Origin: a virus
Taxonomy: Duplodnaviria; Heunggongvirae; Uroviricota; Caudoviricetes
Reading direction: 5' to 3' (one strand)
DNA: 14,506 nt
Virus record (IMG/VR): IMGVR_UViG_2554235189_000015
Coordinates: 1 to 14,506 of that record
Positions 76 to 14,506 of this stretch are shown here, piece after piece (position 1 is the stretch's first letter; each line of letters starts with the position of its first letter). Position numbers and translations under genes: made by a program. The notes under the pieces are model-generated. The model saw nothing but the letters and a program-made list of their open reading frames with translations, was not told where the DNA came from and made no database searches.

Positions 76-158
76 GTTCACAGATAAAACACTCTCCAGG
101 AAAACCGGGGCGGTTCACACAGCCTGAGAATGAAAGCCAGGATGACAACGGTAAAGAG

Positions 159-914
159 GTGGCAACTGAGCCTGAAAAAACCGAAGAGACACCAGAAGAT
201 TACGCCTTGCGTATTGGTGATGAAGAAATTCAGCTTAACGCTGACGATGATGATCACATTGACGGGAAACCTGCACCGCAATGGGTGAAAGATCTTCGCA
301 AAGGCTTCAAAGAAACACAGAAAGAAAACCGTGAGTTGCGCCGCCAGCTTGAGGAAGCATTAGCCAAGCCTGCGGAACATCAGCAACCACAACCAGACGC
401 TATTCCACCAAAACCGACTCTTGAGTCGTGTGATTATGACGAACAGGCGTTTGAACAGGCATTGACTGATTGGCATGAGAAAAAAGGCCGTGTCGAACAG
501 CAGCAGCAACAAAAACTACGTCAGCAACAGGAATACCAACAGCGTTTCCAGCAAAGGGTAGAAGCGCATAAACAACGGGCAGCCAAACTTCCTGTGAAAG
601 ATTATCAGGAAATGGAGGCCATTGTTCTTAGTGAGCTACCACCAATTCAGCAGGAAATCATCATTCACTGTGCAGACGAAGGCTCTGAACTACTCGCCTA
701 TGGCTTAGGTAAGAGCCAGCAATTACGCCAGCGTGTAGCCGCTGAGACAGATCCAATTCGCGCAGCATTCCTCTTGGGGCAGATTAGCAAACAGGTAAGC
801 CTTGCTCCAAAACCAAAGAAAGCCATCAAGCCAGAGCCGGAAGTACGTGGTGGCGGTGCTGATGCGAAACAAGACGAATTCAACAAATTATGCCCCGGCG
901 CAAAAATCGAATAA
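159..914 (+). CDS. Scaffolding protein (P22 gp8-like)
   Basis: 251-aa ORF with an acidic N-terminus and a C-terminal segment (LPVKDYQEMEAIVLSELPP...LLAYGLGKSQQLRQ...LAPKPKK) that resembles the recalled coat-binding C-terminal region of P22 scaffold. Lies directly upstream of the coat gene. The start is uncertain: GTG at 159 is the only canonical start in a frame that is open back to position 63. Confidence 0.8.
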   Translation: MATEPEKTEETPEDYALRIGDEEIQLNADDDDHIDGKPAPQWVKDLRKGFKETQKENRELRRQLEEALAKPAEHQQPQPDAIPPKPTLESCDYDEQAFEQALTDWHEKKGRVEQQQQQKLRQQQEYQQRFQQRVEAHKQRAAKLPVKDYQEMEAIVLSELPPIQQEIIIHCADEGSELLAYGLGKSQQLRQRVAAETDPIRAAFLLGQISKQVSLAPKPKKAIKPEPEVRGGGADAKQDEFNKLCPGAKIE

Positions 915-925
915 GGAAAAGATAA

Positions 926-2197
926 ATGCCTAACAATCTCGACAGTAACGTCAGTCAAATCGTTCTGAAAAAATTCCTTCCTGGTTTTATGTCAGATTTA
1001 GTTCTGGCGAAAACCGTAGACCGTCAGTTGCTGGCAGGTGAAATCAACTCCAGCACTGGCGATAGCGTTAGCTTTAAACGTCCGCATCAATTCTCATCCC
1101 TCCGTACTCCCACTGGTGATATTTCGGGGCAAAATAAAAACAACCTGATCTCAGGTAAAGCTACGGGGCGTGTAGGTAACTACATCACTGTTGCTGTTGA
1201 ATATCAGCAACTGGAGGAAGCGATCAAGCTTAACCAACTGGAAGAAATTCTCGCGCCGGTTCGCCAGCGAATCGTTACCGACCTTGAAACAGAGCTTGCT
1301 CACTTCATGATGAATAACGGTGCGTTGTCACTTGGTAGCCCCAATACTCCAATCACCAAATGGTCTGATGTTGCGCAGACGGCATCTTTCCTGAAAGACC
1401 TCGGCGTTAATGAAGGTGAAAACTATGCTGTAATGGATCCATGGTCTGCACAGCGACTTGCTGATGCGCAGACTGGTTTGCACGCTTCAGATCAATTGGT
1501 TCGTACTGCATGGGAGAATGCGCAGATTCCAACCAATTTTGGCGGCATTCGCGCACTGATGTCTAATGGGCTTGCCTCTCGTACGCAGGGGGCATTTGGC
1601 GGAACACTGACAGTCAAAACACAGCCAACTGTTACCTATAACGCAGTTAAAGACTCATACCAGTTCACTGTAACATTGACCGGAGCGACAGCCAGCGTTA
1701 CAGGTTTTCTGAAAGCTGGTGATCAGGTTAAATTCACCAATACCTACTGGCTGCAACAGCAGACCAAACAGGCGTTGTATAACGGAGCCACACCAATTAG
1801 CTTCACTGCAACGGTTACTGCTGATGCTAATTCAGACAGCAGTGGCGATGTGACGGTTACGCTTTCTGGTGTTCCGATTTATGACACTACAAACCCGCAG
1901 TACAACTCTGTAAGTCGTCAGGTAGCGGCAGGCGATGCCGTATCTGTAGTAGGCACTGCTAGCCAGACAATGAAGCCAAACCTGTTCTATAACAAGTTCT
2001 TCTGTGGACTTGGCTCTATCCCACTGCCGAAACTGCACAGTATTGATTCTGCTGTTGCAACATATGAAGGTTTCTCCATCCGCGTACATAAATACGCAGA
2101 TGGCGATGCCAACGTGCAAAAAATGCGCTTTGACTTACTGCCTGCATATGTGTGCTTTAACCCTCACATGGGCGGTCAGTTCTTCGGTAATCCGTAA
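926..2197 (+). CDS. Major capsid (coat) protein, Sf6-type length (423 aa)
   Basis: ATG at 926 preceded by AAGGAAAAG (913-921). 423-aa ORF directly after scaffold and followed by a hairpin terminator. The N-terminus does not match the recalled P22 gp5 sequence, so this is called Sf6-like on position and size only. Confidence 0.85.
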   Translation: MPNNLDSNVSQIVLKKFLPGFMSDLVLAKTVDRQLLAGEINSSTGDSVSFKRPHQFSSLRTPTGDISGQNKNNLISGKATGRVGNYITVAVEYQQLEEAIKLNQLEEILAPVRQRIVTDLETELAHFMMNNGALSLGSPNTPITKWSDVAQTASFLKDLGVNEGENYAVMDPWSAQRLADAQTGLHASDQLVRTAWENAQIPTNFGGIRALMSNGLASRTQGAFGGTLTVKTQPTVTYNAVKDSYQFTVTLTGATASVTGFLKAGDQVKFTNTYWLQQQTKQALYNGATPISFTATVTADANSDSSGDVTVTLSGVPIYDTTNPQYNSVSRQVAAGDAVSVVGTASQTMKPNLFYNKFFCGLGSIPLPKLHSIDSAVATYEGFSIRVHKYADGDANVQKMRFDLLPAYVCFNPHMGGQFFGNP

Positions 2198-2201
2198 TAA
2201 C

Positions 2202-2228
2202 AAGGGGCTTCCGCCCCTTTTATGTTTT
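2202..2228 (+). terminator. Rho-independent terminator/attenuator downstream of the coat gene
   Basis: Perfect 7-bp stem AAGGGGC (2202-2208) / GCCCCTT (2213-2219) with loop TTCC, followed by the T-rich tract TTATGTTTT, immediately after the coat stop codon. Confidence 0.7.
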
Positions 2229-2239
2229 AAGGAAACAAT

Positions 2240-2425
2240 ATGGATCGCATGAGTGTATTCCTTGCCGCAGATAACGAATCCGGACATGTACAGGCCGTTA
2301 TCGCAGAAAAAGACTTCCAGTTTTTCGAAAAGTTGGGCTTTGTTGCCTCAGTTGATGAATTGAAACCGACCAGTAAGCGAGGTCGTAAGGCGGCAGACAA
2401 TGGCAACAGTACTGACAAAGGGTGA
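2240..2425 (+). CDS. Small hypothetical protein between coat and gp4-like genes
   Basis: 61-aa ORF with ATG at 2240 preceded by AAGGAAACAAT. Its 3-prime end overlaps the next gene start by 26 nt. Function unknown. Confidence 0.5.
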   Translation: MDRMSVFLAADNESGHVQAVIAEKDFQFFEKLGFVASVDELKPTSKRGRKAADNGNSTDKG

Positions 2426-2882
2426 GATCGTCCTTTTTGCGCTTCGTAAGTTTGCTATTGCTTCTAATGCATCGCTGACTGATGTTGAGCCGCAATCAAT
2501 TGAAGATGGTGTAAATGATCTGGAAGATATGATGTCCGAGTGGATGATTAACCCCGGCGACATTGGTTACGCTTTCGCAACTGGAGATGAGCAGCCATTA
2601 CCAGATGATGAGTCTGGTCTTCCAAGAAAATACAAACACGCAGTAGGCTATCAGTTATTGCTGAGAATGCTATCTGATTACAGCCTTGAACCAACTCCGC
2701 AAGTTCTCAGTAACGCCCAACGCTCATTTGATGCCTTGATGACCGACACTCTGGTTGTTCCTTCAATGCGACGACGTGGAGATTTTCCTGTAGGACAGGG
2801 TAATAAATATGACGTGTTCACATCTGACCGATATTATCCAGGCGATCTCCCTCTGATTGATGGCGATATCCCAAACGCATAG
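2400..2882 (+). CDS. Head completion / tail adaptor protein (P22 gp4-like)
   Basis: The N-terminus ([28 protein letters not shown]) matches the recalled P22 gp4 N-terminus ([28 protein letters not shown]). 160 aa versus about 166 aa in P22. AAGG lies 9 nt upstream of the ATG. Confidence 0.9.
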   Translation: [160 protein letters not shown]

Positions 2883-2890
2883 GTGAATAA

Positions 2891-4309
2891 ATGCCTATTC
2901 AGCAACTTCCGCTTATGAAAGGTGTCGGCAAAGACTTTAGAAACGCCGACTATATCGACTATCTGCCAGTGAATATGTTGGCTACACCCAAAGAAATCCT
3001 TAACAGCAGCGGATATCTTCGCTCATTCCCTGGCATTGCCAAACGTTCTGATGTGAACGGTGCATCTCGCGGCGTCGAGTACAACATGGCGCAGAATGCT
3101 GTTTATCGCGTATGTGGTGGCAAGCTGTACAAAGGAGAAAGCGAGGTCGGTGATGTTGCCGGAAGTGGTCGCGTATCAATGGCGCATGGTCGAACATCTC
3201 AGGCGGTAGGCGTTAATGGTCAACTGGTAGAGTATCGCTATGATGGCACGGTTAAAACCGTCTCAAACTGGCCTGCAGACAGCGGATTCACTCAGTATGA
3301 GTTAGGTTCGGTTCGTGACATTACGCGCTTGCGCGGGCGTTATGCGTGGTCAAAAGACGGCACTGATTCATGGTTTATCACTGACCTTGGAGACGAATCA
3401 CATCCTGACCGTTACAGCGCACAATATCGTGCCGAGTCTCAGCCTGACGGCATCATCGGCATAGGAACATGGCGAGACTTCATCGTCTGCTTTGGTTCAT
3501 CGACGATTGAATATTTCTCCCTGACAGGTGCAACCACCGTTGGTGCCGCGTTGTATGTCGCACAGCCATCACTGATGGTGCAGAAAGGGATTGCCGGAAC
3601 CTACTGCAAAACGCCGTTTGCTGATTCGTATGCGTTCATCAGCAATCCGGCAACAGGTGCGCCGTCTGTATATATCATCGGCTCCGGTCAGGTATCACCA
3701 ATCGCCAGCGCGAGCATTGAGAAAATACTACGCTCCTACACTGCTGATGAACTGGCTGATGGCGTAATGGAATCGTTGCGCTTTGATGCGCATGAGTTGC
3801 TGATTATCCATCTTCCGCGCCACGTCCTCGTGTACGACGCATCTTCAAGCGCCAATGGTCCGCAATGGTGTGTGTTGAAAACTGGCTTGTATGACGATGT
3901 GTACCGCGCTATCGACTTCATTTACGAAGGCAATCAGATAACGTGCGGCGATAAGCTGGATTCCGTGACCGGGAAATTGCAATTCGACATCAGCAGCCAG
4001 TACGACAAGCAACAGGAACACCTGCTGTTTACTCCGTTGTTCAAAGCGGATAACGCCAGAGTTTTCGACCTTGAAGTTGAATCTTCAACTGGAGTTGCGC
4101 AGTATGCTGACCGCCTTTTTCTCTCTGCAACCACTGACGGCATCAATTACGGACGTGAGCAGATGATTGAGCAGAATGAACCGTTCGTTTACGACAAACG
4201 CGTTTTGTGGAAGCGAGTAGGGCGCATCAGGAAAAATGTCGGCTTCAAATTGCGCGTTATCACGAAGTCACCTGTCACTCTGTCTGGTTGCCAGATAAGG
4301 ATTGAGTAA
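2891..4309 (+). CDS. Tail hub protein (P22 gp10-like)
   Basis: 472 aa, the same length as P22 gp10, with near-identity to the recalled gp10 N-terminus ([46 protein letters not shown]). AGGTGA SD upstream of ATG 2891. Confidence 0.95.
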
Positions 4310-5157
4310 TGGCGGATTCGAATCTCAATGTGCCGGTAATCATTCAGGCTACACGGCTCGACACATCAGTCCTTCCACGCAATATCTTCTCGCAGTCGTA
4401 TCTGCTTTACGTTATCGCACAGGGTACTGATGTTGGTAACGTGGCGAACAAGGCCAACGAGGCCGGACAGGGCGCTTATGACGCACAAGTCAGGAACGAT
4501 GAGCAGGATGTGATTCTGGTCGATCACGAAATTCGACTGGCATCAGCTGAAGCGAAGATTCAGGACCACGAAACAAGGATCACTAACGCAGAATCGGCGA
4601 TAGTCGGCCTTGATTCCCGATTAACGACAGCAGAAAACGATATTGATTATCTGACTGATGAAGTTATCGCCATTCAAAACACGCTTTCAGACCATGAAAC
4701 GCGCATTGATGCTCTGGAGTATGCCACTACTCGCAAAAAGTCAGAGGTTGTTTACTCTGGCGTATCTGTAACCATCCCGACAGCGCCGACCAACCTTGTT
4801 AGCCTGCTGAAAACGCTCACGCCGTCATCCGGGACGTTGGCACCATTCTTCGACACTGTTAACAACAAGATGGTTGTGTTCAACGAGAACAAAACCTTGT
4901 TCTTCAAGCTGTCGATCGTCGGGACGTGGCCCAGCGGAACCGCCAACAGGTCAATGCAGCTAACCTTTTCCGGCTCTGTTCCTGACACGTTGGTCAGCAG
5001 TCGTAATGCGGCGACAACAACCGACAACATCCTGTTAGCTACGTTCTTCAGCGTGGATAAAGACGGCTTTCTTGCCACAAATGGCAGTACGTTAACCATT
5101 CAGTCAAATGGTGCGGCGTTTACTGCCACAACCATCAAGATAATCGCGGAGCAGTAA
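4309..5157 (+). CDS. Tail needle protein (P22 gp26-like N-terminus with a C-terminal knob extension, Sf6-type)
   Basis: The N-terminus ([43 protein letters not shown]...[13 protein letters not shown]) matches the recalled gp26 N-terminus. At 282 aa it is longer than P22 gp26 (about 233 aa), with a beta-rich C-terminal domain. The start overlaps the gp10 stop (TAATG). Confidence 0.9.
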
Positions 5158-5612
5158 TGATTCAGTTCAAACCAACGCGAAACATCGACCTGATCGAAGC
5201 CGTGGGAAATCACCCCGACATTATCGCCGGGAGCAACAACGGTGATGGATACGACTACAAGCCTGAATGCCGTTACTTCGAGGTGAACGTGCACGGGCAG
5301 TTCGGCGGCATTGTTTACTATCAGGAGATTCAGCCTTTGACCTTTGATTGCCACGCCATGTACCTGCCAGAGGTTCGTGGATTCAGCAAGGAAATCGGGC
5401 TGGCGTTCTGGCGATACATTCTGACTAACACCACCGTTCAGTGCGTCACATCGTTCGCTGCGCGCAAATTCCGCCACGGTCAGATGTACTGCGCAATGAT
5501 TGGCCTTAAGCGAGTAGGAACCATCAAGAAATACTTCAAAGGCGTGGATGACGTGACTTTTTACAGCGCAACACGCGAAGAACTAATCGACTTCCTGAAT
5601 CACGGGAGATAG
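5157..5612 (+). CDS. P22 gp14-like virion protein
   Basis: 151-aa ORF in the syntenic position between the tail needle and the ejection proteins. Start overlaps the previous stop (TAATG). Assigned by position and size only. Confidence 0.7.
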   Translation: MIQFKPTRNIDLIEAVGNHPDIIAGSNNGDGYDYKPECRYFEVNVHGQFGGIVYYQEIQPLTFDCHAMYLPEVRGFSKEIGLAFWRYILTNTTVQCVTSFAARKFRHGQMYCAMIGLKRVGTIKKYFKGVDDVTFYSATREELIDFLNHGR

Positions 5613-5614
5613 CC

Positions 5615-6307
5615 ATGTTATATGCATTTAAGCTGGGCAGAAAACTGCGCGGCGAGGAACCTTATTGCCCTGAAAAGGGTGGGAAAGGTGGCAGTTCTGA
5701 TAAAAGCGCAAAGTATGCCGCAGAAGCTCAGAAGTATGCAGCAGACCTGCAAAATCAGCAGTGGCAGACGATCATGAAAAACCTTGCTCCGTTCACGCCT
5801 CTTGCGGAGCAGTATGTTAACCAGTTGCAGAATCTTTCCAGTTTAGAAGGTCAGGGGCAGGCACTTAATCAGTATTACAACTCTCAGCAGTATAAAGACC
5901 TTGCAGGTCAGGCGCGTTACCAGAGTCTTGCTGCTGCGGAGGCGACGGGTGGACTTGGTTCGACAGCCACAAGCAATCAACTGGCTACGATCGCGCCGAC
6001 ACTCGGTCAGTCTTGGTTATCAAACCAGATGAGCAATTACAACAATCTGGCAAACGTTGGGCTTGGTGCGCTGCAAGGTCAGGCAAACGCCGGGCAGACG
6101 TACGCCAACAACATGAGCAGCATTGCACAGCAAAGCGCAGCACTTGCCGCTGCTAATGCCAATAAACCATCAAGTCTTCAGACTGCAATTAGCGGTGGCA
6201 CGTCTGGTGCGATTGCCGGTGCAGGTCTTGCCAGCCTTTTGGGAACATCAACGCCTTGGGGCGCTGGCATTGGTGCTGGTATCGGATTGCTTGGCTCGTT
6301 GTTTTAA
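5615..6307 (+). CDS. Ejection (internal virion) protein, P22 gp7-like
   Basis: 230 aa (P22 gp7 is about 229 aa). N-terminus MLYAFKLGRKLRGEE, with a Gly/Ala-rich hydrophobic C-terminus. GGGAGA SD 5 nt upstream of the ATG. Confidence 0.8.
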   Translation: MLYAFKLGRKLRGEEPYCPEKGGKGGSSDKSAKYAAEAQKYAADLQNQQWQTIMKNLAPFTPLAEQYVNQLQNLSSLEGQGQALNQYYNSQQYKDLAGQARYQSLAAAEATGGLGSTATSNQLATIAPTLGQSWLSNQMSNYNNLANVGLGALQGQANAGQTYANNMSSIAQQSAALAAANANKPSSLQTAISGGTSGAIAGAGLASLLGTSTPWGAGIGAGIGLLGSLF

Positions 6308-6316
6308 GGGGTAATC

Positions 6317-7783
6317 ATGGCTACTTGGCAAGGAACAAACGGCGGATTGTTGGCTGGTATCGGCGTCGTCAACTCAAACGCTCCGAGCGTAAATGACATC
6401 GGCAATACGCTTCAGCTTATCAGGCAGAACAATGATATTGAGCGTTCAGGCGCTAACAATGTTGGGCTGACTGCTTTGCAAGGTCTTTCAGGTATTGCGG
6501 GTGTTTTTCAGCAGGAAAAGCAGGCTCAGCGGCAGAAAGAATTTCAGCAGGCATACGCTAATGCTTATGCGTCTGGTGATCGCGGTGCTTTGCGTCAGTT
6601 GGCTACTCAATATCCAGACCAGATTGAATCCGTTCGTAAAGGCATGGGATTCATTGATGAAGACCAGCGCAATTCTATAGGCACCTTAGCGGCTGGCGCA
6701 CGCCTTGCGTCATCGTCTCCAGAAGCAATGCAATCATGGCTGCAAAACAACGCCAAGGAACTGACTCGCGTCGGTGTTGACCCTAACAGCGTTGCTCAGA
6801 TGTATCAGCAGAATCCTTCAGGATTTGGTGAGTTTGTTGATCACCTTGGGATGGCTGCGCTTGGTCCGATTGATTACTTCAATGTTCAGGACAAGATGGC
6901 TGGTCGGGATATTGAGCGTGGCGAGTTGGCAGAGACGATTCGCAGCAATCATGCTGGAGAAGCACTTCAGGCGAGAGGGCAGGATATTAGCCGAGCAAAT
7001 GCGTTAACGTCAGCATATGCACCAACAGCCGCAATGCAGAATTACAATCAGTACGCGCAAATGTTAAAGGCAGATCCAGATGGTGCAGCGGCATTTGCGG
7101 CAGCGGCGGGAATTAATCCCAATGCTAAGAAATTACTTAAGGTTGAAACCAATCCTGATGGCTCGGTAACTAAGTATTACACCGATGGCAGCGAGGAAGC
7201 CGGAAAACTAAACCAACCTATATCTGGTGATGGCATTAAACCAATTAGCTTGCCACAAGCGCAAAGCATCATAGATAAGGCTAATGAGGGTTCCAAGAAG
7301 GCGGCAGGATTTGCTTTGCGATTAAAAGATTCAATGGACTCAATGAATCAGCTTAGTAAAAGCATTGACCCTAAGCGAGTTGCATTAATAAATCGCTCTC
7401 TTGGTGATGGGACTATTGCAAATTTAAGCCTATCACCAGCGGAGCAGCAATACATGGTAAATGCGAGAGACGCCTTGTATGCAATTTTGCGCCCAGAAAC
7501 AGGTGCAGCAATTACTCTGCCAGAGATGCAGGAGTATTCCAAAATGTACCTGCCTCAGCCTGGTGATTCCAAGGCTGCTACTGAAACAAAAATGCGAAAA
7601 ATGCAGGGCCAATATAACTCATTACGTGGTCAGTCTGGTCGCGTTTATGATGCTTTGGTGGTTTCAAGTGCTGCAAATAGTCAACAACAGAGCAATAGCC
7701 AACAACCGACAAATACCCAACAGCAGCAGAGTCAATCCGGATCATATACCTCAAAATCAGGCATTCAATTTACGGTGGAATGA
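6317..7783 (+). CDS. Ejection protein, P22 gp20-like
   Basis: 488 aa in the syntenic position (P22 gp20 is about 471 aa). AAGGGG SD upstream. Q/S-rich low-complexity C-terminus. Confidence 0.75.
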
Positions 7784-9627
7784 TGAAAGTAACTGCAAAC
7801 GGTAAGACATTTACCTTTCCTGATGGTACGAGCACCGAAGATATTGGCACCGCCATTGATGAGTATTTTGCTGGTCAGGCTGTTCAGCAACAAACAGTTA
7901 ATCAGGCCAATAATGCACCAACACGGGAAGAACCATCATTGATGCAACAAGCTGGTGATTGGCTCACTGGTGGTCAAAGTGCAGGGAAAATTGCGGAACA
8001 GGCTGGTCGTGGTCTGGTAAACATACCATTTGACGTATTGCAGGGCGGCGCAAGTCTGATTAATGCAATCAGTCAGGGGCTTGGTGGACCCAAGGTTTTG
8101 GATGATGTTTATCGTCCAGTAGACAGACCGACAGACCCCTACGCGCAAGCCGGTGAAACAATTGGTGGGTATTTAGTTCCAGGAGTTGGAACGGCAGGAA
8201 GCATGGCTATTGGATCACTGGCAGAGGCCGCAAATCAGAAAGGCGATTTCGCACAAAATGCAGCTAAAAATGCCGGAGTTAACCTTGCCGCTCAGGGTGT
8301 TCTTTCCGCAGCAGCAAAGGGAATAGGGCGTGGAATAACGGCTATAAAAGGTGATATTGCGCCAGAAGTGGCGAAGAAAATTGCCACATCAGAATCGATG
8401 GGCGTGACACCAATGACATCTGATGTTATCCCGCCGAAAAATGCTTTTACTCGCGGCCTAACTCAGGATGCCGAGGGGGCTTTGCTCGGGACAGGCTCAA
8501 AGCGAGCGGAGCAATATGCAACGCGTAGTAAGCTGGTAAGTAATTATTTTGACCGTTTTGGTGAGTACAACCCTGATGATGTGGTGAAATCTCTTACCAC
8601 CACGTTAAGGGGGCGGAAGGATGCCGCTGGCGCTGTTATCAATGACGTCACCAATAAAATGGGTAATGCCGCAGTTGATACCACAAATACCATGAATGCT
8701 CTGAATACAGCGATCGCAAGACAGGAACGGCTTGGGACGTCTGCCAATCAAAGCCTGCTTACATCCTTGCGTAACCTACGTGAAGAATTAGCAAACCCTG
8801 CAACTGATTTGGATGTTACGTTTGATCTCTTGCGTCAGCACAGAACAGCATTTAGATCTAATGTTCAGGGAGATGCTATGGTCTTCCCCAACCAGGCAAA
8901 AGCAGCTACCAATATGGTAGAGAATGCAATGTCAAAAGACCTTCGTAACGCAGTTGCTAAAAACCTCGGTGCATCAGACGCAGCAAAATACCTTAAAGCA
9001 AATTCCGATTATGCAAACGTTTATAATAAGGTGCTTAATAAAAACATTGCCAACAAGCTCAACAAGGCAAGCAGTGAAGCCAGTCCTGAACTTATAAATA
9101 CCGTTGTATTAAGCAGAAAACCATCTGACGTGAAACGAATCTGGAGCGCACTGGATGATAAGGGGAAAGATGCTATGCGTGCAGCTTACGTCAGCAAAAT
9201 AGCGGAAAAGGCCGGGGACTCTCCAGCCAAGTTCATCACTGAAGTTAATAAGCTGAAATCTCAGTCAGGCGGTGAAATTTACAACACTATTTTTTCTGGA
9301 AAGCACATGAAAGAGCTTGATGCTCTTCATGAAGTTCTACAGCAAACAGCAAGGTCAGACACCGCAAATGTAGTAACTCAGACGGGGCAATCGCAAGCCA
9401 ACAGGATAAGGACGATTGGCGCAACTGCGACCCTTGGCGTATCAATGGGGCTTGAGGCTGGTTTTGGTGCAATGATGCGCTTGTATGAGTCCAAAGCAGC
9501 AAGGAATGCTCTCTTACGCCTGGCAAACACTAAAACTGGAACGCCAGCTTATGAAAGAGCGCTAAATAATGCTGCAAATGCGATACGCCCTATACTTTCA
9601 AGCCAAATTACAGCAGAACAGCAATAA
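7780..9627 (+). CDS. Ejection protein, P22 gp16-like
   Basis: 615 aa in the syntenic position (P22 gp16 is about 609 aa). Start overlaps the gp20-like stop (ATGATGA), consistent with translational coupling. Confidence 0.75.
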
Positions 9628-9641
9628 AAGATAAGATATAA

Positions 9642-10127
9642 CTACCTGATATTACTGCTACTGTTGCATGTTACCGTGTTTCCAAATCCTGAATTGCAGT
9701 TTGTATATGTGTCAACGCGTGTTGGGTAAGGTTGAGTTATAACAGGCTGGCGCGCTTTTTGCTCGATCGCTTGCATTGTGTTTACAGCCTGATAATTCAA
9801 TAAAGCCTGCTGGAATGCTTGGCTTTGCGCTATTTGTTGGGCTTGCTCTTGGCTTTGTAATTGAACATAAAGATTTTGAAGCTCAAGTCTTGCCTGTGCG
9901 TCACTTATCTTACCTTCATCAACACCTTGCCCGAGCATCTTTGCGGCAAGGACATACAGCTTAGGTGTTGGTGCAGACGCCATGCGTGAGTCGTTCTTCA
10001 CACTGGCATCAAGGCAATTAGCCATATCGCTAAGCTTTTGATAGCGTTGTTCGCAACTTGCTTGATAGTCACTTACTTTTGCGCATCCAACCAGAAGAAG
10101 CGGGATAATTAACAGTGATTTTTTCAT
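9642..10127 (-). CDS. Phage-encoded lipoprotein of unknown function (candidate superinfection-exclusion factor)
   Basis: Start assigned to the internal Met at 10127: MKKSLLIIPLLLVGC is a classic signal peptide with lipobox LVGC, and a strong SD (AAGGAGAG) lies about 8 nt upstream. The track start at 10163 has no SD. The mature protein is Gln-rich with four further cysteines. Occupies the position of sieA in P22 (between gene 16 and mnt, opposite strand to the late genes). Confidence 0.75.
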   Translation of the reverse strand: MKKSLLIIPLLLVGCAKVSDYQASCEQRYQKLSDMANCLDASVKNDSRMASAPTPKLYVLAAKMLGQGVDEGKISDAQARLELQNLYVQLQSQEQAQQIAQSQAFQQALLNYQAVNTMQAIEQKARQPVITQPYPTRVDTYTNCNSGFGNTVTCNSSSNIR

Positions 10128-10197
10128 ATGGCTAACTCTCCTTAGTTTTTCACAGGATATCATGAAGGAAATGCCATTTTAGCCGGAAACTAGATTT

Positions 10198-10585: not shown

Positions 10586-12652
10586 ATGTCAGATATCACC
10601 GCAAATGTTGTGGTAAGCATGCCTTCGCAACTCTTCACTATGGCGCGTTCTTTTAAAGCGGTTGCCAATGGCAAAATTTATATCGGTAAAATTGACACTG
10701 ATCCGGTAAATCCTGAAAACCAGATTCAGGTTTATGTGGAAAACGAAGACGGTTCTCACATTCCTGTTTCGCAACCAATCATCATTAACGCTGCTGGTTA
10801 CCCGGTATATAACGGGCAGATTGCCAAGTTCGTAACTGTGCAAGGCCATTCTATGGCTGTATATGATGCGTATGGTGCGCAGCAGTTCTATTTTCCTAAT
10901 GTGCTGAAGTATGACCCTGACCAACTAAGACAGGAGTTAGATGGTGTTGGTGGGGTTAATTTAGTAAATGGGGCATTACATGGTGCCATGGATTCAGATC
11001 CAAATGTTGGTTTTAAAATCACCACATCCTCAGGTGAGATTTACGAATATGCTCCGGGAATTACAGGTCTTGCCGATGGGTTTTCGGTATCAGCATCACA
11101 GTTATATTTAACAAGGAATGGCCTATCTTATAAATACTCTTCACCTCATAACACACTGGTTTGGCCATCTCAGTATATCGATACGAGTGCTGATGCGAAA
11201 TATTCAATTGAATCTATTATGGCGCACGGATTGAATGTGGACCTTAACGGAACTACAGTTAAAGCCAGCACCATTAATATTACGAAAGATTTGATTAATG
11301 GTGAAATTGTTGCTATCGGAGATGAAGGATCATTTATAACAGTAAACTCATGCATGCTTAACAATATTAAAGTTAACTGCAATATGATGGCAATTAGAAG
11401 GCCTGTTCATATCAAAACAGGGGCTGTTAATCCAGTAGTTAAGAATGTTGATGTTTTTGATAGTAATGGTTCTCAACTAACTTATGGTATTTTCATAGAT
11501 GCAAATTCTGTATTGAATTTTGTCGTTGATAACATATCAATACATAATATTACCACCATTGGAAATGGTATTCAGGGTGATGTAATTGGGCCATGTCGAG
11601 GGATTCTTGTAGGAACGGCACTTGATCCAGTACCATCAAATGATGATGAGGTATCAAGTGGAGTTATAAGTAACGTAAGGATTTACAAGCTAAACCCTTG
11701 GGAAGATGCTGATGGTGTTGTTATTCAGATTTACAACTCATCATCAAATATGCTCAGCGGGAAGAAAATAAAGGTTGATGGCGTTTATACTTACAATGCA
11801 CTTAAGCGAGCAGTCAAAGTTCAGGCCAATGATGTTACAGTAACAAATGTATTTGCGGTTTGTGATGACGCCTCAGCAACTAACCCTATGTATAGTTGTG
11901 TTAGTGTTTATGGTAGTTCCTGTGTTGTTCGTGGTGTTAGTGGGCGAGGAAGGATTGGCAATGGTGTTGATTCATCTGATGGGTTCAATACTATCAGTGA
12001 TGTTTATCTTAAGACGACAGCAACCTATGAGCTAAGCGCAGGTCTACAGATAACTTCCGGGCAGGTAAACGCGAATAACATTCACTCTGAAGGATCAAGA
12101 TACATAGTCGCAATTCGGGCAGTTAATAACACAACACCGTATGTAAATATTAATGGCATATATGGGCAAGGTTATGACGGGGCGATTTTGTTAGAAATCA
12201 GATACGGATTTAATATTGGTAATGTTTACTTAAGTGATATTTCAGTATCAAGTTCAAATCCCACAAGGTCTTCATTCTTCTTTGATATATTATCAGGTGG
12301 AAGTATATCTCTGATCAGCGTGTCAGACGTCAAGAGAATCAGTCAGGCATTTAACGGAGCAGATATAAACATTTCTGGTGGGGTTGCAAAAGCTATTGTT
12401 AAAAATTCAGTTTTTGAGAGTGGTTCGTCAAGCGTTGGTGTATCAATGACAACTGGTACTTTAGTTGCATCAAATATATCAGCACAAAGTAAATCTTATG
12501 CTGTCAACGCTGTACAAACCACAAATTCACTTATAAATAACATTGATGGAATCGTTAGGGTTGATAGCACAACCAACAGTAATGTCGGCCTTTACAGAGG
12601 GATTACCTCTGTTGGGACTAACACAGGACTGAAAACTGTTTTCTATCAATAA
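10586..12652 (+). CDS. Tailspike protein: P22-type head-binding N-terminal domain plus divergent receptor-binding/depolymerase domain (predicted beta-helix)
   Basis: The N-terminus from Met 10586 ([57 protein letters not shown]...[13 protein letters not shown]...NVLKYDPDQ) matches the recalled P22 gp9 head-binding domain. GGAG lies 7 nt upstream. The remaining roughly 570 aa are AT-rich and rich in Asn/Ser/Val/Ile/Gly, as in parallel beta-helix depolymerases. The track start at 10538 adds 16 non-homologous residues and was not used. Confidence 0.9.
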
Positions 12653-13204
12653 TTATATATAACCTTTTGATGTTTTATATGATGTTATCTTGGCAGGGAC
12701 GCCAGCAATAGTGCAATTTCCATCTTTAAAATCTTTGTTAACGACTGCATTCGCGCCTATTGCACAATTGTCACCTATAACTATCTTTCCGTAAATTTTT
12801 GCTCCAGGACCAATGTAGCAATTATCACCAATTACAGGGGATTCAAGTCCTGCTCCAGCTGATGTGCCAATATTCGTACCTACATGAATTCGGCAATTTG
12901 CACCTATCCTGGCTCCTGCGTTAACAACTATGTTACCATAATGTGGTATTGATAACCCTGGACCAAAGGTATTGATAGGTATTGAAAATCCAAGTTTCAT
13001 TTGAATTTTGCGTAACCTAAGTCTTGTAATCAGAATTAAAACTTTATTTCCTTTGCAATTAGTAAGATACTCCAACCTCCTTAGCAATCTAAGGAATCTC
13101 CATATATCGTTGAATATTATATTTTTTAACCTTGACCCCTGAAGCCTCATAGCCTTTTCGTCAAGGAGAAGGTATGACTTGTAATCTTCCTTGCTGCTTA
13201 TCAT
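12653..13204 (-). CDS. Hexapeptide-repeat (left-handed beta-helix) acetyltransferase, CysE/WcaB/NeuO-like; candidate lysogenic-conversion enzyme
   Basis: The C-terminal half has tandem hexapeptide motifs typical of LbH acyltransferases (NAGARIGANCRIHVGTNIGTSAGAGLESPVIGDNCYIGPGAKIYGKIVIGDNCAIGANAVVN). Strongly AT-rich. Lies between the tailspike and int/att, where P22 has gtrABC and Sf6 has oac. Start is uncertain: Met at 13204 is preferred (184 aa, weak SD); the track start at 13258 adds an odd hydrophobic leader. Confidence 0.8.
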   Translation of the reverse strand: MISSKEDYKSYLLLDEKAMRLQGSRLKNIIFNDIWRFLRLLRRLEYLTNCKGNKVLILITRLRLRKIQMKLGFSIPINTFGPGLSIPHYGNIVVNAGARIGANCRIHVGTNIGTSAGAGLESPVIGDNCYIGPGAKIYGKIVIGDNCAIGANAVVNKDFKDGNCTIAGVPAKITSYKTSKGYI

Positions 13205-13348
13205 TCTATGCTCGCCAGAAATGTGAATAGGTGTAAAGATTAAGAAAAACCTCAACATTTTGCAAGATTAAGGTTAATCATAGTAAATGACAGTTGATCT
13301 GAATGCGCCTTAAGACTACTGTGTATGCATGCAGTGATGTAGGTGGCA
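13205..13348. promoter_or_regulatory. Spacer between acetyltransferase and int 3-prime end: candidate attP region / acetyltransferase promoter
   Basis: In P22-like genomes attP lies between the conversion locus and the 3-prime end of int. This AT-rich spacer contains a 9-bp direct repeat AAGATTAAG (13236-13244 and 13264-13272) and a related TTAAGA at 13310-13315. No tRNA-like core could be recognised by eye. Confidence 0.25.
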
Positions 13349-14506
13349 CTACCCCTCCTTTTCATCAAGCCAATCCGCCCACCACTGCATCATTTCTCTG
13401 CGCTTATCGAGATACTGAGCATGGTTGTAAATTCCACGCACAGAACCGCCGTTGGCATGTGCCAGTTGCACTTCAATGGCGTCGGCAGGCCATTCGTGCT
13501 CGTTCATAATTGTGCTGAATTCATGCCTGAATCCGTGACCGCTTTCCAGACCCTCATAGCCGATTTGTTTGATCACAAGCAATACCGCGTTCTCGCAGAT
13601 TGGCTTCTTCTTATCGTTGCGCCCGGCAAAAACAAACTCTGATACTGGTTTGGTGATTGAGCTTAGCGTAGTGAGAAGTTCAACCACCTGGTCTGACATA
13701 GGAACCACATGAATTTTGCGTCCCTTCATCACACTGGCGTCGATGGTGATAATCCTGTTTTCAAAATCGACGTTCTTCCATAGCATGGAACGAAGCTCTT
13801 TCGTTCTTAGGGCTGTGTAGCGTAAAATTTTAGTAGCAATGAGCGATACGATACTTCCTGAAAATGTTGCAAGTGCTTTGTTGAATGCCGGGATCTGGTC
13901 GGCAGGTAAAAATGGGAAGTTCTTCTTGCGGTATCCCTTCATGGCGTCAGCAAGGTCAGGTGCCGGGTTATATTTAGCCCTACCAGTGACAATAGCGTAA
14001 CGGAAAACCTCGCCGCATCTTCTGCGGGCTTTGTTGGCTCGCTCCATTGCACCGCGATCTTCAAATCTGCGGATTACTTCCAGCAGTTGCATCGGCTCAA
14101 TATCCTGAATCTCAAGGCCGCCGATGATGGGTAAAATGTCGTCATCAAACATTTTGGCAAGTTCAGTTGCATAGCCTACTGACCAGACTTGCTTCTTGTG
14201 CTCGTACCATTCCTTGTAAATCGCACTAAATGAATTGTTGTTAGACGAAGCCTTTTTCGCTTTTACCGGATCGATGCCAACCGAGATGTCTTTCCTCGCA
14301 GTCCATGCTTTATCCCTTGCCTCCTGCAAAGTCATAAGTGGATATTTTCCGACGGTCAGGATTTTCTCCTTACCGTCAATCTTGTAGCGAAGCTGCCATA
14401 CCTTTTTCCCGGATACAGGGACATAAAGGTACAGGCCATTACCATCGAGAAGGCGGTATGGTTTTTCTTTCGGCTTTGCTGCTTCAATCTGCTTAACGGT
14501 GAGCAT
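13349..14506 (-). CDS. int: Tyrosine integrase (P4/P22 family), apparently full length
   Basis: 385-aa ORF. The N-terminus (MLTVKQIEAAKPKEKPYRLLDGNGLYLYVPVSGKKVWQLRYKIDGKEKILTVGKYP) is the typical arm-binding domain of P4-type integrases. The C-terminus carries the catalytic region (HGFRHEF ... LAHANGGSVRGIYNHAQY). The ATG is the reverse complement of the last three bases of the window. Confidence 0.92.
   Translation of the reverse strand: MLTVKQIEAAKPKEKPYRLLDGNGLYLYVPVSGKKVWQLRYKIDGKEKILTVGKYPLMTLQEARDKAWTARKDISVGIDPVKAKKASSNNNSFSAIYKEWYEHKKQVWSVGYATELAKMFDDDILPIIGGLEIQDIEPMQLLEVIRRFEDRGAMERANKARRRCGEVFRYAIVTGRAKYNPAPDLADAMKGYRKKNFPFLPADQIPAFNKALATFSGSIVSLIATKILRYTALRTKELRSMLWKNVDFENRIITIDASVMKGRKIHVVPMSDQVVELLTTLSSITKPVSEFVFAGRNDKKKPICENAVLLVIKQIGYEGLESGHGFRHEFSTIMNEHEWPADAIEVQLAHANGGSVRGIYNHAQYLDKRREMMQWWADWLDEKEG

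What the first reader, a model, noticed from the sequence alone, without database searches (positions are those of the whole stretch)
10586..12652. Mosaic tailspike: conserved P22-type head-binding domain fused to a divergent AT-rich receptor-binding domain
Roughly the first 110 residues are near-identical in pattern to the P22 gp9 head-binding domain. After about nt 10920-10950 ([12 protein letters not shown]) the sequence becomes AT-rich and unrelated to the P22 endorhamnosidase sequence I recall. It is also too short (688 aa) and lacks the C-terminal chaperone domain expected of a CUS-3-type endosialidase. This points to a horizontally exchanged receptor-binding module of unknown glycan specificity, possibly acquired together with the downstream acetyltransferase.
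Basis: partly seen in the sequence, partly recalled or inferred. Interest (0 to 1): 0.6.

Follow-up and report, generated by a model that had tools for sequence, protein, structure and literature searches.

The report
Mosaic P22-type tailspike, probably O76-specific
This is the tailspike of a P22-like E. coli prophage: its virion-attachment domain is conserved, but its sugar-recognising beta-helix domain was swapped in with the neighbouring acetyltransferase gene, and it most likely targets the E. coli O76 O-antigen; this kind of module exchange is well known, and this is a new, uncharacterised example.

Summary
Window 10586-12652 (+) encodes a 688-aa tailspike. Residues 1-118 are a P22-type head-binding domain (Pfam E=1e-66; 88% identical to Sf6 gp14, 73% to P22 gp9). 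From about residue 122 the protein has no sequence relative among solved structures. It models confidently (pLDDT 90) as a right-handed parallel beta-helix.

It is a 2,255-bp low-GC cassette (10951-13205; GC 0.377 against at least 0.433 upstream). It holds the receptor-binding domain plus the convergent, abutting hexapeptide O-acetyltransferase.

- The pair recurs at 87.8% nucleotide identity in an unrelated Enterobacter hormaechei prophage, and in two further prophages with other N-terminal anchors.
- In four E. coli copies the cassette is nearly identical, while its flanks differ by up to 7.4% (head-binding part) and 3.4-5.4% (integrase).

Only 3 of 5,426 complete E. coli genomes carry the cassette. 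All three are among the 5 genomes with the O76 wzx/wzy cluster (p about 4e-10), so the receptor is most likely the O76 O-antigen.

Not shown: enzymatic cleavage, whether the enzyme is a hydrolase or a lyase, and the acetyltransferase's role in masking the receptor. This is a new member of a known kind, of moderate interest.

The parts
10586..12652 (+). Tailspike gene, 688 aa plus stop
   Evidence: ORF and translation. GGAG ribosome-binding site upstream of the ATG at 10586. Annotated with the same ends in KD602, JNE132847 and K99B.
10586..10936 (+). P22-type head-binding (virion-attachment) domain, aa 1-117
   Evidence: Pfam PF09008 E=1e-66 over aa 1-113. Matches PDB Sf6 gp14 7sg7 and P22 gp9: 88% and 73% identity. 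Megablast hits to 31 phages and 1,137 E. coli genomes cover only this part.
10951..10974 (+). Crossover zone in the linker (GGVNLVNGA, aa 122-130), homologous to both parental types
   Evidence: Other E. coli P22-like tailspikes with a different receptor-binding domain match up to aa 130. The E. hormaechei cassette matches from nt 10951 onward. Three-way DNA alignment.
10937..12652 (+). Receptor-binding module, aa 118-688: a small beta neck domain followed by a right-handed parallel beta-helix running to the C-terminus
12653..13204 (-). Left-handed beta-helix (hexapeptide-repeat) O-acetyltransferase, 183 aa, convergent with and abutting the tailspike stop codon
   Evidence: Pfam Hexapep E=1.8e-12. 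Best NCBIfam matches are EpsC and CysE-like models, all below their cut-offs. RefSeq protein WP_000625801.1 is identical in all three E. coli genomes. 94.5%, 86% and 75% identical copies sit beside receptor-binding-domain homologues in other prophages. dN/dS 0.13.
10951..13205 (.). 2,255-bp low-GC exchange cassette: receptor-binding domain plus acetyltransferase
   Evidence: One ungapped 87.8% blastn match to the E. hormaechei prophage, L006 8663-10917. GC 0.377. Across four E. coli copies the cassette shows 0-11 differences in 1,716 nt and 0-3 in 552 nt, while the flanks show up to 26 in 351 nt and 39-62 in 1,158 nt.
13349..14506 (-). IntS-type tyrosine integrase (context: the prophage end next to the argW tRNA-Arg gene)
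   Evidence: Pfam Phage_integrase, Phage_int_M and Arm-DNA-bind_3. Annotated intS next to tRNA-Arg and yfdC in three genomes.

Best explanation
This is the tailspike of a P22/Sf6-like temperate podovirus integrated at the argW tRNA gene.

Shown: residues 1-117 are the conserved head-binding domain that attaches the spike to the tail machine. Residues 118-688 are a beta-helix receptor-binding module. That module arrived by recombination in a short conserved linker (GGVNLVNGA), as part of a 2.26-kb low-GC cassette that also carries a convergent hexapeptide O-acetyltransferase.

Inferred: the beta-helix binds the O76 O-antigen of E. coli, a linear GlcA-GalNAc3Ac-GalNAc-GalNAc repeat. It depolymerises that O-antigen so the virion can reach the outer membrane. 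After lysogeny, the cytoplasmic acetyltransferase O-acetylates the O-unit while it is built on undecaprenyl pyrophosphate. This alters the receptor so that the lysogen and its debris no longer capture phages carrying this spike. Recognition and masking functions therefore travel together between phage backbones and genera, following O76-type O-antigens. Whether cleavage is hydrolytic or by beta-elimination at GlcA is open.
For: Domain architecture.

P22-like late-operon context and argW/intS site.

Cassette:
- 87.8% nucleotide identity from 10951 to 13205 with an E. hormaechei prophage that has a T7_gp14-type backbone.
- The same convergent, abutting pair occurs in L024 (receptor-binding domain 89%, acetyltransferase 86%) and in L011 (64% and 75%).
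- Virulent or large phages carrying the receptor-binding domain lack the acetyltransferase.
- The cassette is far more conserved than its flanks among four E. coli copies.
- GC and GC3 drop across the cassette.
- Both genes are under purifying selection, dN/dS about 0.12.

O76 link:
- The tailspike and the acetyltransferase each occur in the same 3 of 5,426 complete genomes.
- O76 wzx-wzy occurs in 5 genomes, and those 5 include all 3. Hypergeometric p=3.8e-10.
- JNE132847 is serologically O76:H7 (PMC10790564).
- The three hosts have different alleles of neighbouring housekeeping genes and three different prophage contexts: intact mosaics and an IS-truncated remnant.
- The only other O-antigen locus seen, an O8-family cluster, is in KD602 alone.
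- E. hormaechei has an O76-like cluster that is colinear at 73% nucleotide identity.

Acetyltransferase role: its chromosomal relatives sit in O-antigen or exopolysaccharide gene clusters. Its best family match is EpsC-like.

O76 contains GlcA and a partly O-acetylated GalNAc (PMC10304059, citing Perepelov 2013).
Against: No biochemical data exist.

- The O76 link rests on three genomes. JNE132847 and K99B share the same protein accessions across most of the his-gnd region (they differ at hisF and one O76-cluster glycosyltransferase), so the O76 locus itself is not independent between them.
- The host O-type of the window's own source and of the E. hormaechei lysogen could not be checked.
- The O76 gene cluster already encodes its own hexapeptide acetyltransferase (PMC4309606), so what the phage enzyme adds is unknown.
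- Most known phage O-antigen acetylases are membrane proteins of the acyltransferase-3 family, not soluble hexapeptide enzymes (from my own knowledge).
- Fold matches are only 10-14% identical and form a continuum of beta-helix proteins, so they do not identify the catalytic mechanism.
- No promoter-like or terminator-like signal above chance was found around the acetyltransferase.
Confidence: 0.68

Rival explanations
1. The receptor is another surface polysaccharide that happens to be shared by these strains (a capsule or K-antigen, colanic acid, or ECA). The O76 association is then a by-product of shared ancestry or small numbers.
Against: Colanic acid and ECA are nearly universal in E. coli, yet the cassette is in 3 of 5,426 genomes. 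The flanking alleles and prophage backbones differ among the three hosts. The galF-gnd slot holds O76 rather than a group 1 capsule locus. An O76-like locus exists in E. hormaechei, the other species where the cassette occurs. Group 2/3 kps loci were not examined.
Confidence: 0.15
2. The beta-helix only binds the glycan, or removes a substituent, without cutting the backbone. It would then be a non-depolymerising adhesin.
For: No catalytic residues could be assigned. The sequence has no match to any glycoside-hydrolase or lyase family.
Against: All well-studied P22-like tailspikes with this fold are endoglycosidases (from my own knowledge). The nearest structures are active depolymerases. The family has many invariant or nearly invariant acidic and basic residues (D188, D215, R221, D230, E256, D257, D259, K290, R291, K294, Y319 in module numbering), as expected for an active site.
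Confidence: 0.1
3. The acetyltransferase is an unrelated passenger gene, for example a serine acetyltransferase as annotated, and is linked to the tailspike only by position.
For: RefSeq names it serine O-acetyltransferase. CysE structures are the best PDB sequence matches.
Against: It scores 63 bits against a cysE cut-off of 210.65, and it lacks the SATase_N domain. It co-occurs with the receptor-binding domain in 4 of 4 temperate contexts and co-diverges with it. It is absent from E. coli genomes without this receptor-binding domain. Its relatives lie in polysaccharide gene clusters.
Confidence: 0.05

Closest known systems
P22 gp9, Sf6 gp14 and HK620 gp9 tailspikes (P22-like podoviruses)
   Same: The N-terminal head-binding domain (73-88% identity), the position after the ejection-protein genes and the immI-type Arc/Mnt gene, and a C-terminal right-handed beta-helix.
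CUS-3 prophage: endosialidase tailspike, NeoO O-acetyltransferase and integrase at argW (layout recalled from my own knowledge)
   Same: A P22-like prophage with the same gene order: tailspike, then a soluble hexapeptide O-acetyltransferase, then the integrase. The head-binding DNA is 92% identical.
   Different: The receptor-binding domain is a beta-helix, not a GH58 propeller with an S74 chaperone. The acetyltransferase is not a NeoO orthologue: the only polysialic acid O-acetyltransferase in the PDB search (2wlc) matches only over the hexapeptide region, E=3e-6. It has no heptanucleotide phase-variation tract.
Sf6 gene 14, oac and int module (lysogenic conversion next to the tailspike; from my own knowledge)
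   Same: A tailspike followed by an O-antigen acetylase and the integrase. The logic is the same: recognise the receptor, then modify it.
   Different: Sf6 Oac is an integral-membrane acyltransferase-3 enzyme. Here the enzyme is a soluble hexapeptide-repeat protein and is transcribed convergently.
Shigella phage vB_SboS_Gloob gp168 (Agtrevirus tailspike protein)
   Same: It is the closest receptor-binding domain in a sequenced phage: 50.7% identity over 97% of the module.
   Different: It is a 1,010-aa protein with Ackermannviridae anchor domains in a virulent phage. There is no adjacent acetyltransferase, and its receptor is not determined (PMC10791037).
Klebsiella K1 capsule lyases (9k4a, 7w1c) and coliphage K5A lyase (2x3h)
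   Different: Identity is only 11-13%. Catalytic residues could not be mapped. Glycoside hydrolases and epimerases with the same fold score almost as high.

Membership tests
P22-like tailspike (Pfam Head_binding-anchored) | N-terminal PF09008 head-binding domain | tested here: met
   E=1e-66, profile positions 1-113 of 113. PDB matches to Sf6 and P22 spikes.
P22-like tailspike (Pfam Head_binding-anchored) | Encoded at the end of a P22-like late operon, after the gp7/gp20/gp16-type ejection genes and the immI region | tested here: met
   Window 118-10144 is 95-97% identical in parts to Sf6, Gally and HK620. Annotations of the same prophage in L001, L003, L008.
P22-like tailspike (Pfam Head_binding-anchored) | C-terminal right-handed parallel beta-helix receptor-binding domain | tested here: met
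P22-like tailspike (Pfam Head_binding-anchored) | Homotrimer with endoglycosidase activity on the host O-antigen | not testable with these tools
   Needs protein chemistry. Only a monomer model was made.
P22 gp9-type endorhamnosidase | Sequence homology of the catalytic beta-helix to P22 or Sf6 | tested here: not met
   PDB and Pfam matches stop at aa 113-119. A profile of the module finds no PDB beta-helix.
Endosialidase tailspike (CUS-3 / K1F type) | GH58 beta-propeller plus C-terminal Peptidase_S74 intramolecular chaperone | tested here: not met
   No such Pfam hit. The model is a beta-helix running to the C-terminus.
Beta-helix polysaccharide lyase (K1 lyase / K5 lyase / PL6-like) | Pectate-lyase-like beta-helix fold | tested here: met
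Beta-helix polysaccharide lyase (K1 lyase / K5 lyase / PL6-like) | Conserved Brønsted base/acid and charge-neutralising residues in the groove; unsaturated uronate product | not testable with these tools
   No structural alignment or coordinates were available. Conserved Arg, Lys, Tyr, His and Asp/Glu residues all exist in the family, so the sequence does not discriminate.
Hexapeptide-repeat (left-handed beta-helix) acetyltransferase | Hexapeptide repeats forming the acetyl-CoA-dependent transferase core | tested here: met
   PF00132 E=1.8e-12. 81 PDB hexapeptide transferases match.
Serine O-acetyltransferase CysE (as annotated) | Score above the equivalog cut-off, and an N-terminal SATase_N domain | tested here: not met
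   TIGR01172 63.2 bits against a cut-off of 210.65; NF008349 44.9 against 397. No SATase_N domain.
NeoO polysialic-acid O-acetyltransferase | Orthology to a polysialic acid O-acetyltransferase and a 5' heptanucleotide repeat tract | tested here: not met
   2wlc matches only aa 123-175, E=3e-6. No tandem repeat tract. No match to phage CUS-3 among the rows listed in the phage protein search.

The most novel reading that the evidence does not exclude
The tailspike receptor-binding domain and the soluble hexapeptide O-acetyltransferase would form a self-contained 'recognise and then mask' cassette. It would move as one unit between unrelated temperate phage backbones (P22-like, and two types with T7-tail-fibre or Tail_spike_N anchors) and between genera (Escherichia, Enterobacter), following O76-type O-antigens. 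The spike would also be an O-antigen lyase acting at GlcA. Every P22-like tailspike I can recall as characterised is a glycoside hydrolase.
Probability: 0.3. Interest if true: 0.55.

Novelty: new member of a known kind. Interest (0 to 1): 0.36.

Why it matters
- It gives a specific, cheap-to-test prediction of a depolymerase for E. coli O76. O76 is a minor Shiga-toxin-producing serogroup linked to haemolytic uraemic syndrome, and it was hard to isolate in the reported case (PMC10790564). An O76-specific tailspike could serve for capture, typing or decapsulation-type reagents.
- It documents at nucleotide resolution how a receptor-binding domain and the matching receptor-modifying gene are exchanged together. 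The crossover point is defined in a conserved linker. This is useful for predicting host range from prophage sequence and for engineering spikes.
- It shows that the RefSeq name 'serine O-acetyltransferase' is probably misleading for this gene.

Tried and rejected
- Sequence searches of the receptor-binding module against the PDB, as a single sequence and as a profile, found only the N-terminal anchor domains.
- Pfam and NCBIfam gave nothing for the module.
- I considered an endosialidase/NeoO (CUS-3-like) reading and rejected it.
- I considered O8 as the receptor because KD602 has an O8-family cluster. I rejected it because JNE132847 and K99B lack that cluster.
- I tried to show that the E. 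hormaechei lysogen (GCA_019840865.1 / SRR15524783) itself carries the O76-like locus. The Wzy homologues I could look up came from other samples, so this remains open.
- I could not obtain the primary O76 structure paper. The supplementary tables of the O-antigen review are not held.
- I looked for papers on an O76-specific tailspike. None surfaced among the listed results, which was not restricted to O76 papers.
- Promoter and terminator scans around the cassette were no better than shuffled controls.

Full report
**What is in the sequence**

The finding's coordinates are correct. A 688-codon ORF starts at the ATG at 10586, which is preceded by GGAG, and stops at 12650-12652. RefSeq annotates the same gene ends in three complete E. 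coli genomes.

Residues 1-113 match Pfam Head_binding (PF09008) over the whole profile, E=1e-66. Residues 1-118 align without gaps to the solved Sf6 gp14 spike (104/118 identical) and the P22 gp9 spike (86/118 identical). After residue about 119 no PDB sequence matches. A profile built from 25 homologues of the C-terminal part finds only the N-terminal anchor domains of other tailspikes.

At the DNA level, all 31 phage records that match cover only nt 1-356 of the gene. In 5,426 complete E. coli genomes, 1,137 match the 5' part and none of these extends beyond nt 389. Only three match the whole gene.

GC is 0.439 in the head-binding part and 0.380 afterwards, and GC3 falls from 0.436 to 0.277.

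**Surroundings**

The window is the late region and right end of a P22/Sf6-like prophage. Bases 118-10144 are 95-97% identical in blocks to Sf6, Gally, HK620 and related phages. Upstream of the spike lies an Arc/Mnt-type repressor gene.

Downstream, on the opposite strand and abutting the spike's stop codon, lies a 183-aa hexapeptide-repeat acetyltransferase (12653-13204). Beyond it is an IntS-type integrase (13349-14506). In the three E. coli genomes the integrase is followed by the argW tRNA-Arg gene and yfdC.

**The exchanged unit is a two-gene cassette**

A single ungapped blastn match of 2,259 columns at 87.8% identity joins window 10951-13205 to a prophage of Enterobacter hormaechei, L006 8663-10917.

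- The match begins at codon 122 of the tailspike. It ends exactly at the start codon of the acetyltransferase.
- The Enterobacter phage has a different backbone: a T7_gp14-like internal virion protein, and holins and an endolysin directly after the cassette. Its spike is 787 aa with another N-terminus.

The same convergent, abutting pair is found twice more.

- In L024, a 780-aa spike with a T7-tail-fibre N-terminal domain has a receptor-binding part 89% identical, and its acetyltransferase is 86% identical.
- In L011, an 851-aa spike with a Tail_spike_N domain is 64% identical, and its acetyltransferase is 75% identical.

The two genes therefore co-diverge. Homologues of the receptor-binding part in virulent or large phages have no acetyltransferase next to them. 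These include Agtrevirus Gloob gp168 (50.7% identity), a 128-kb contig with several spikes, and a siphovirus-like contig.

I compared four E. coli copies: the window, KD602, JNE132847 and K99B.

- The receptor-binding part differs at 0-11 of 1,716 positions.
- The acetyltransferase differs at 0-3 of 552 positions.
- The head-binding part differs at up to 26 of 351 positions.
- The integrase differs at 39-62 of 1,158 positions.

The cassette is thus much younger than, or far more recently shared than, its flanks.

The cassette's GC (0.377) is lower than that of any same-size window upstream (minimum 0.433). dN/dS between the E. coli and Enterobacter copies is 0.12 for the receptor-binding part and 0.13 for the acetyltransferase, so both genes are maintained by selection.

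**The crossover point**

Another E. coli P22-like spike (strain MFDS1001074), which carries an unrelated receptor-binding domain, is 95% identical through residue 130 (...[21 protein letters not shown]) and then diverges. The Enterobacter cassette is homologous from residue 122 onward.

The roughly 24-nt stretch 10951-10974, encoding GGVNLVNGA, is therefore shared by both parental types. It also belongs to a linker conserved in the receptor-binding family whatever its N-terminal anchor (consensus EL....GVNLVGGA.H). This is the likely site of recombination.

**Structure**

An AlphaFold2 model of residues 118-688, built with the 25-sequence alignment, has mean pLDDT 90.2 and pTM 0.88. It shows a small beta neck domain followed by a long right-handed parallel beta-helix that runs to the C-terminus.

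- Foldseek against the PDB gives only weak matches to tailspikes: phi29 gp12, CBA120 TSP2 and HK620.
- The viral model library gives only 10-16% identical spikes.

The scores form a continuum. They establish the fold and the class (phage beta-helix depolymerase) but not the chemistry.

The family is small. In 1.84 billion representative proteins, about eleven clusters match the module over its full length.

**Which receptor**

Both the tailspike and the acetyltransferase occur in the same three complete E. coli genomes and in no other.

- JNE132847 is a Shiga-toxin-producing O76:H7 isolate typed with O76 antiserum (PMC10790564).
- KD602 carries an O76-family wzx/wzy cluster between galF and gnd.
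- A search with that wzx-wzy segment finds only five genomes of 5,426: KD602, JNE132847, K99B, FORC_042 and MB98. All three lysogens are therefore among the five O76 genomes. The hypergeometric probability is 3.8e-10.

The association is not obviously one clone.

- The three hosts have different protein alleles of sbmC, dacD, sbcB and tsuA near the locus.
- Their prophages are different mosaics, one of them a remnant truncated by IS100.
- A further assembly carries the same spike and acetyltransferase in a tandem prophage at another site with another integrase.

KD602 also has an O8-family ABC-transporter O-antigen cluster, but JNE132847 and K99B do not. O8 is therefore not the shared feature.

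E. hormaechei, the other species in which the cassette was found, has an O-antigen cluster colinear with O76 at about 73% nucleotide identity, with Wzy 63-71% identical. I could not show that the lysogenic strain itself has that cluster.

According to PMC10304059, citing Perepelov et al. 2013, the O76 unit is a linear tetrasaccharide of two GalNAc, one GalNAc3Ac (about 70% acetylated) and one GlcA. I could not read the primary paper.

**The acetyltransferase**

It is a soluble hexapeptide-repeat enzyme. Its best curated family matches are EpsC and CysE models, far below their cut-offs: 79 bits against 150, and 63 against 211.

- It has no SATase_N domain.
- It is not close to the polysialic acid O-acetyltransferase in the PDB, and it has no phase-variation repeat tract.
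- It is only faintly similar to the acetyltransferase inside the O76 gene cluster.
- It belongs to a very large family of 180-200-aa proteins (5,320 hits).

Its chromosomal relatives lie in polysaccharide clusters. One, 72% identical, sits at the end of a cluster next to trmL-cysE-gpsA-secB. Another, 59% identical, sits beside wzy in an exosortase exopolysaccharide cluster.

The RefSeq label 'serine O-acetyltransferase' is therefore probably a naming artefact. A sugar O-acetyltransferase acting on the O-unit at the cytoplasmic face is the likelier function (inference).

**How it most likely works**

Shown:
- the domain architecture and the beta-helix fold;
- the cassette, its boundaries, and its transfer between backbones;
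- its exclusive presence in genomes with the O76 locus.

Inferred:
- the spike binds and cleaves the O76 O-antigen during adsorption;
- the acetyltransferase modifies that O-antigen in the lysogen, which reduces re-adsorption and superinfection, as in the Sf6 oac and CUS-3 neoO arrangements (from my own knowledge).

Open:
- whether cleavage is by hydrolysis or beta-elimination. O76 contains GlcA and the top structural neighbours are lyases, but hydrolases with the same fold score almost as well. The family conserves both acidic clusters (E256, D257, D259) and basic/aromatic residues (R154, R155, H158, K290, R291, K294, Y319; module numbering);
- which hydroxyl group the acetyltransferase targets.

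**Comparison with known systems and verdict**

This is a member of the P22-like, head-binding-domain-anchored tailspikes; the features I could test are met. It is not a P22/Sf6 endorhamnosidase, not an HK620-type enzyme by sequence, and not an endosialidase.

Modular exchange of tailspike receptor-binding domains is textbook knowledge. So is placing O-antigen or capsule modification genes between the spike and the integrase. A neighbouring E. coli prophage even has gtr-type genes in the same slot.

Three things are new:
- an uncharacterised receptor-binding family;
- a specific receptor prediction (O76);
- the demonstration that the domain and a soluble hexapeptide acetyltransferase move together as a 2.26-kb cassette across phage types and genera.

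I rate it a new member of a known kind, of moderate interest.

Noticed in passing
L004 4890-16970 and L005 27642-34642 (E. coli KD602, NZ_CM145715.1): KD602 carries two O-antigen loci: an O76-family wzx/wzy cluster between galF and gnd, and an O8-family wzm/wzt/methyltransferase/mannosyltransferase cluster between wzzB and hisIE. JNE132847 and K99B have only the O76 cluster.
   Followed up: partly
L008 and L009 (GCA_965254175.1, contig CBDGCG010000001.1, 347740-401040): The identical tailspike plus acetyltransferase occurs twice, about 39 kb apart on one contig. One copy is followed by a lambda-type integrase and the other by torT/torR/torC-like host genes. This looks like a tandem prophage at a different attachment site from argW.
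   Followed up: no
L014 4563-15921 (E. coli K99B, NZ_CM135133.1): The prophage is a remnant truncated by IS100 and IS3 elements. It still keeps an intact tailspike, acetyltransferase and intS, and it has a different immI region with an antirepressor-like gene.
   Followed up: partly
L015 7787-9786 (Enterobacter hormaechei CP138219.1): The O76-like O-antigen cluster is interrupted by an IS1 between wzx and wzy. The insertion removes the in-cluster hexapeptide acyltransferase and leaves wzy truncated to 261 aa. An intact, 99.8% identical version is in L020. This may be an O-antigen-loss variant.
   Followed up: partly
L021 3501-7389 (E. coli MFDS1001074): Another P22-like prophage shares residues 1-130 of the spike, then has an unrelated receptor-binding domain. 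It carries gtr-type glucosylation genes (yfdH and a 421-aa membrane-type gene) in the slot where this window has the acetyltransferase.
   Followed up: partly
window 9642-10163 (-): A 173-aa ORF between the gp16-like ejection gene and the Arc/Mnt repressor has no Pfam match and no NCBIfam match above cut-off. A shorter version (161 aa) is annotated as hypothetical in the related prophages.
   Followed up: no
window 12653-13258 (-): The mechanical ORF for the acetyltransferase is 201 aa, starting at the ATG at 13258. Both the cassette homology and the RefSeq annotation start at 13204 (183 aa), so the upstream 18 codons are probably not translated.
   Followed up: yes
phage records H65-H82 (Streptococcus thermophilus phages SW and 987x, about 16.9-17.7 kb): Hexapeptide acetyltransferases about 36% identical over residues 86-201 (58% of the 201-aa ORF) are encoded in the structural region of S. 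thermophilus phages. Phage-borne soluble sugar acetyltransferases may therefore be more widespread.
   Followed up: no
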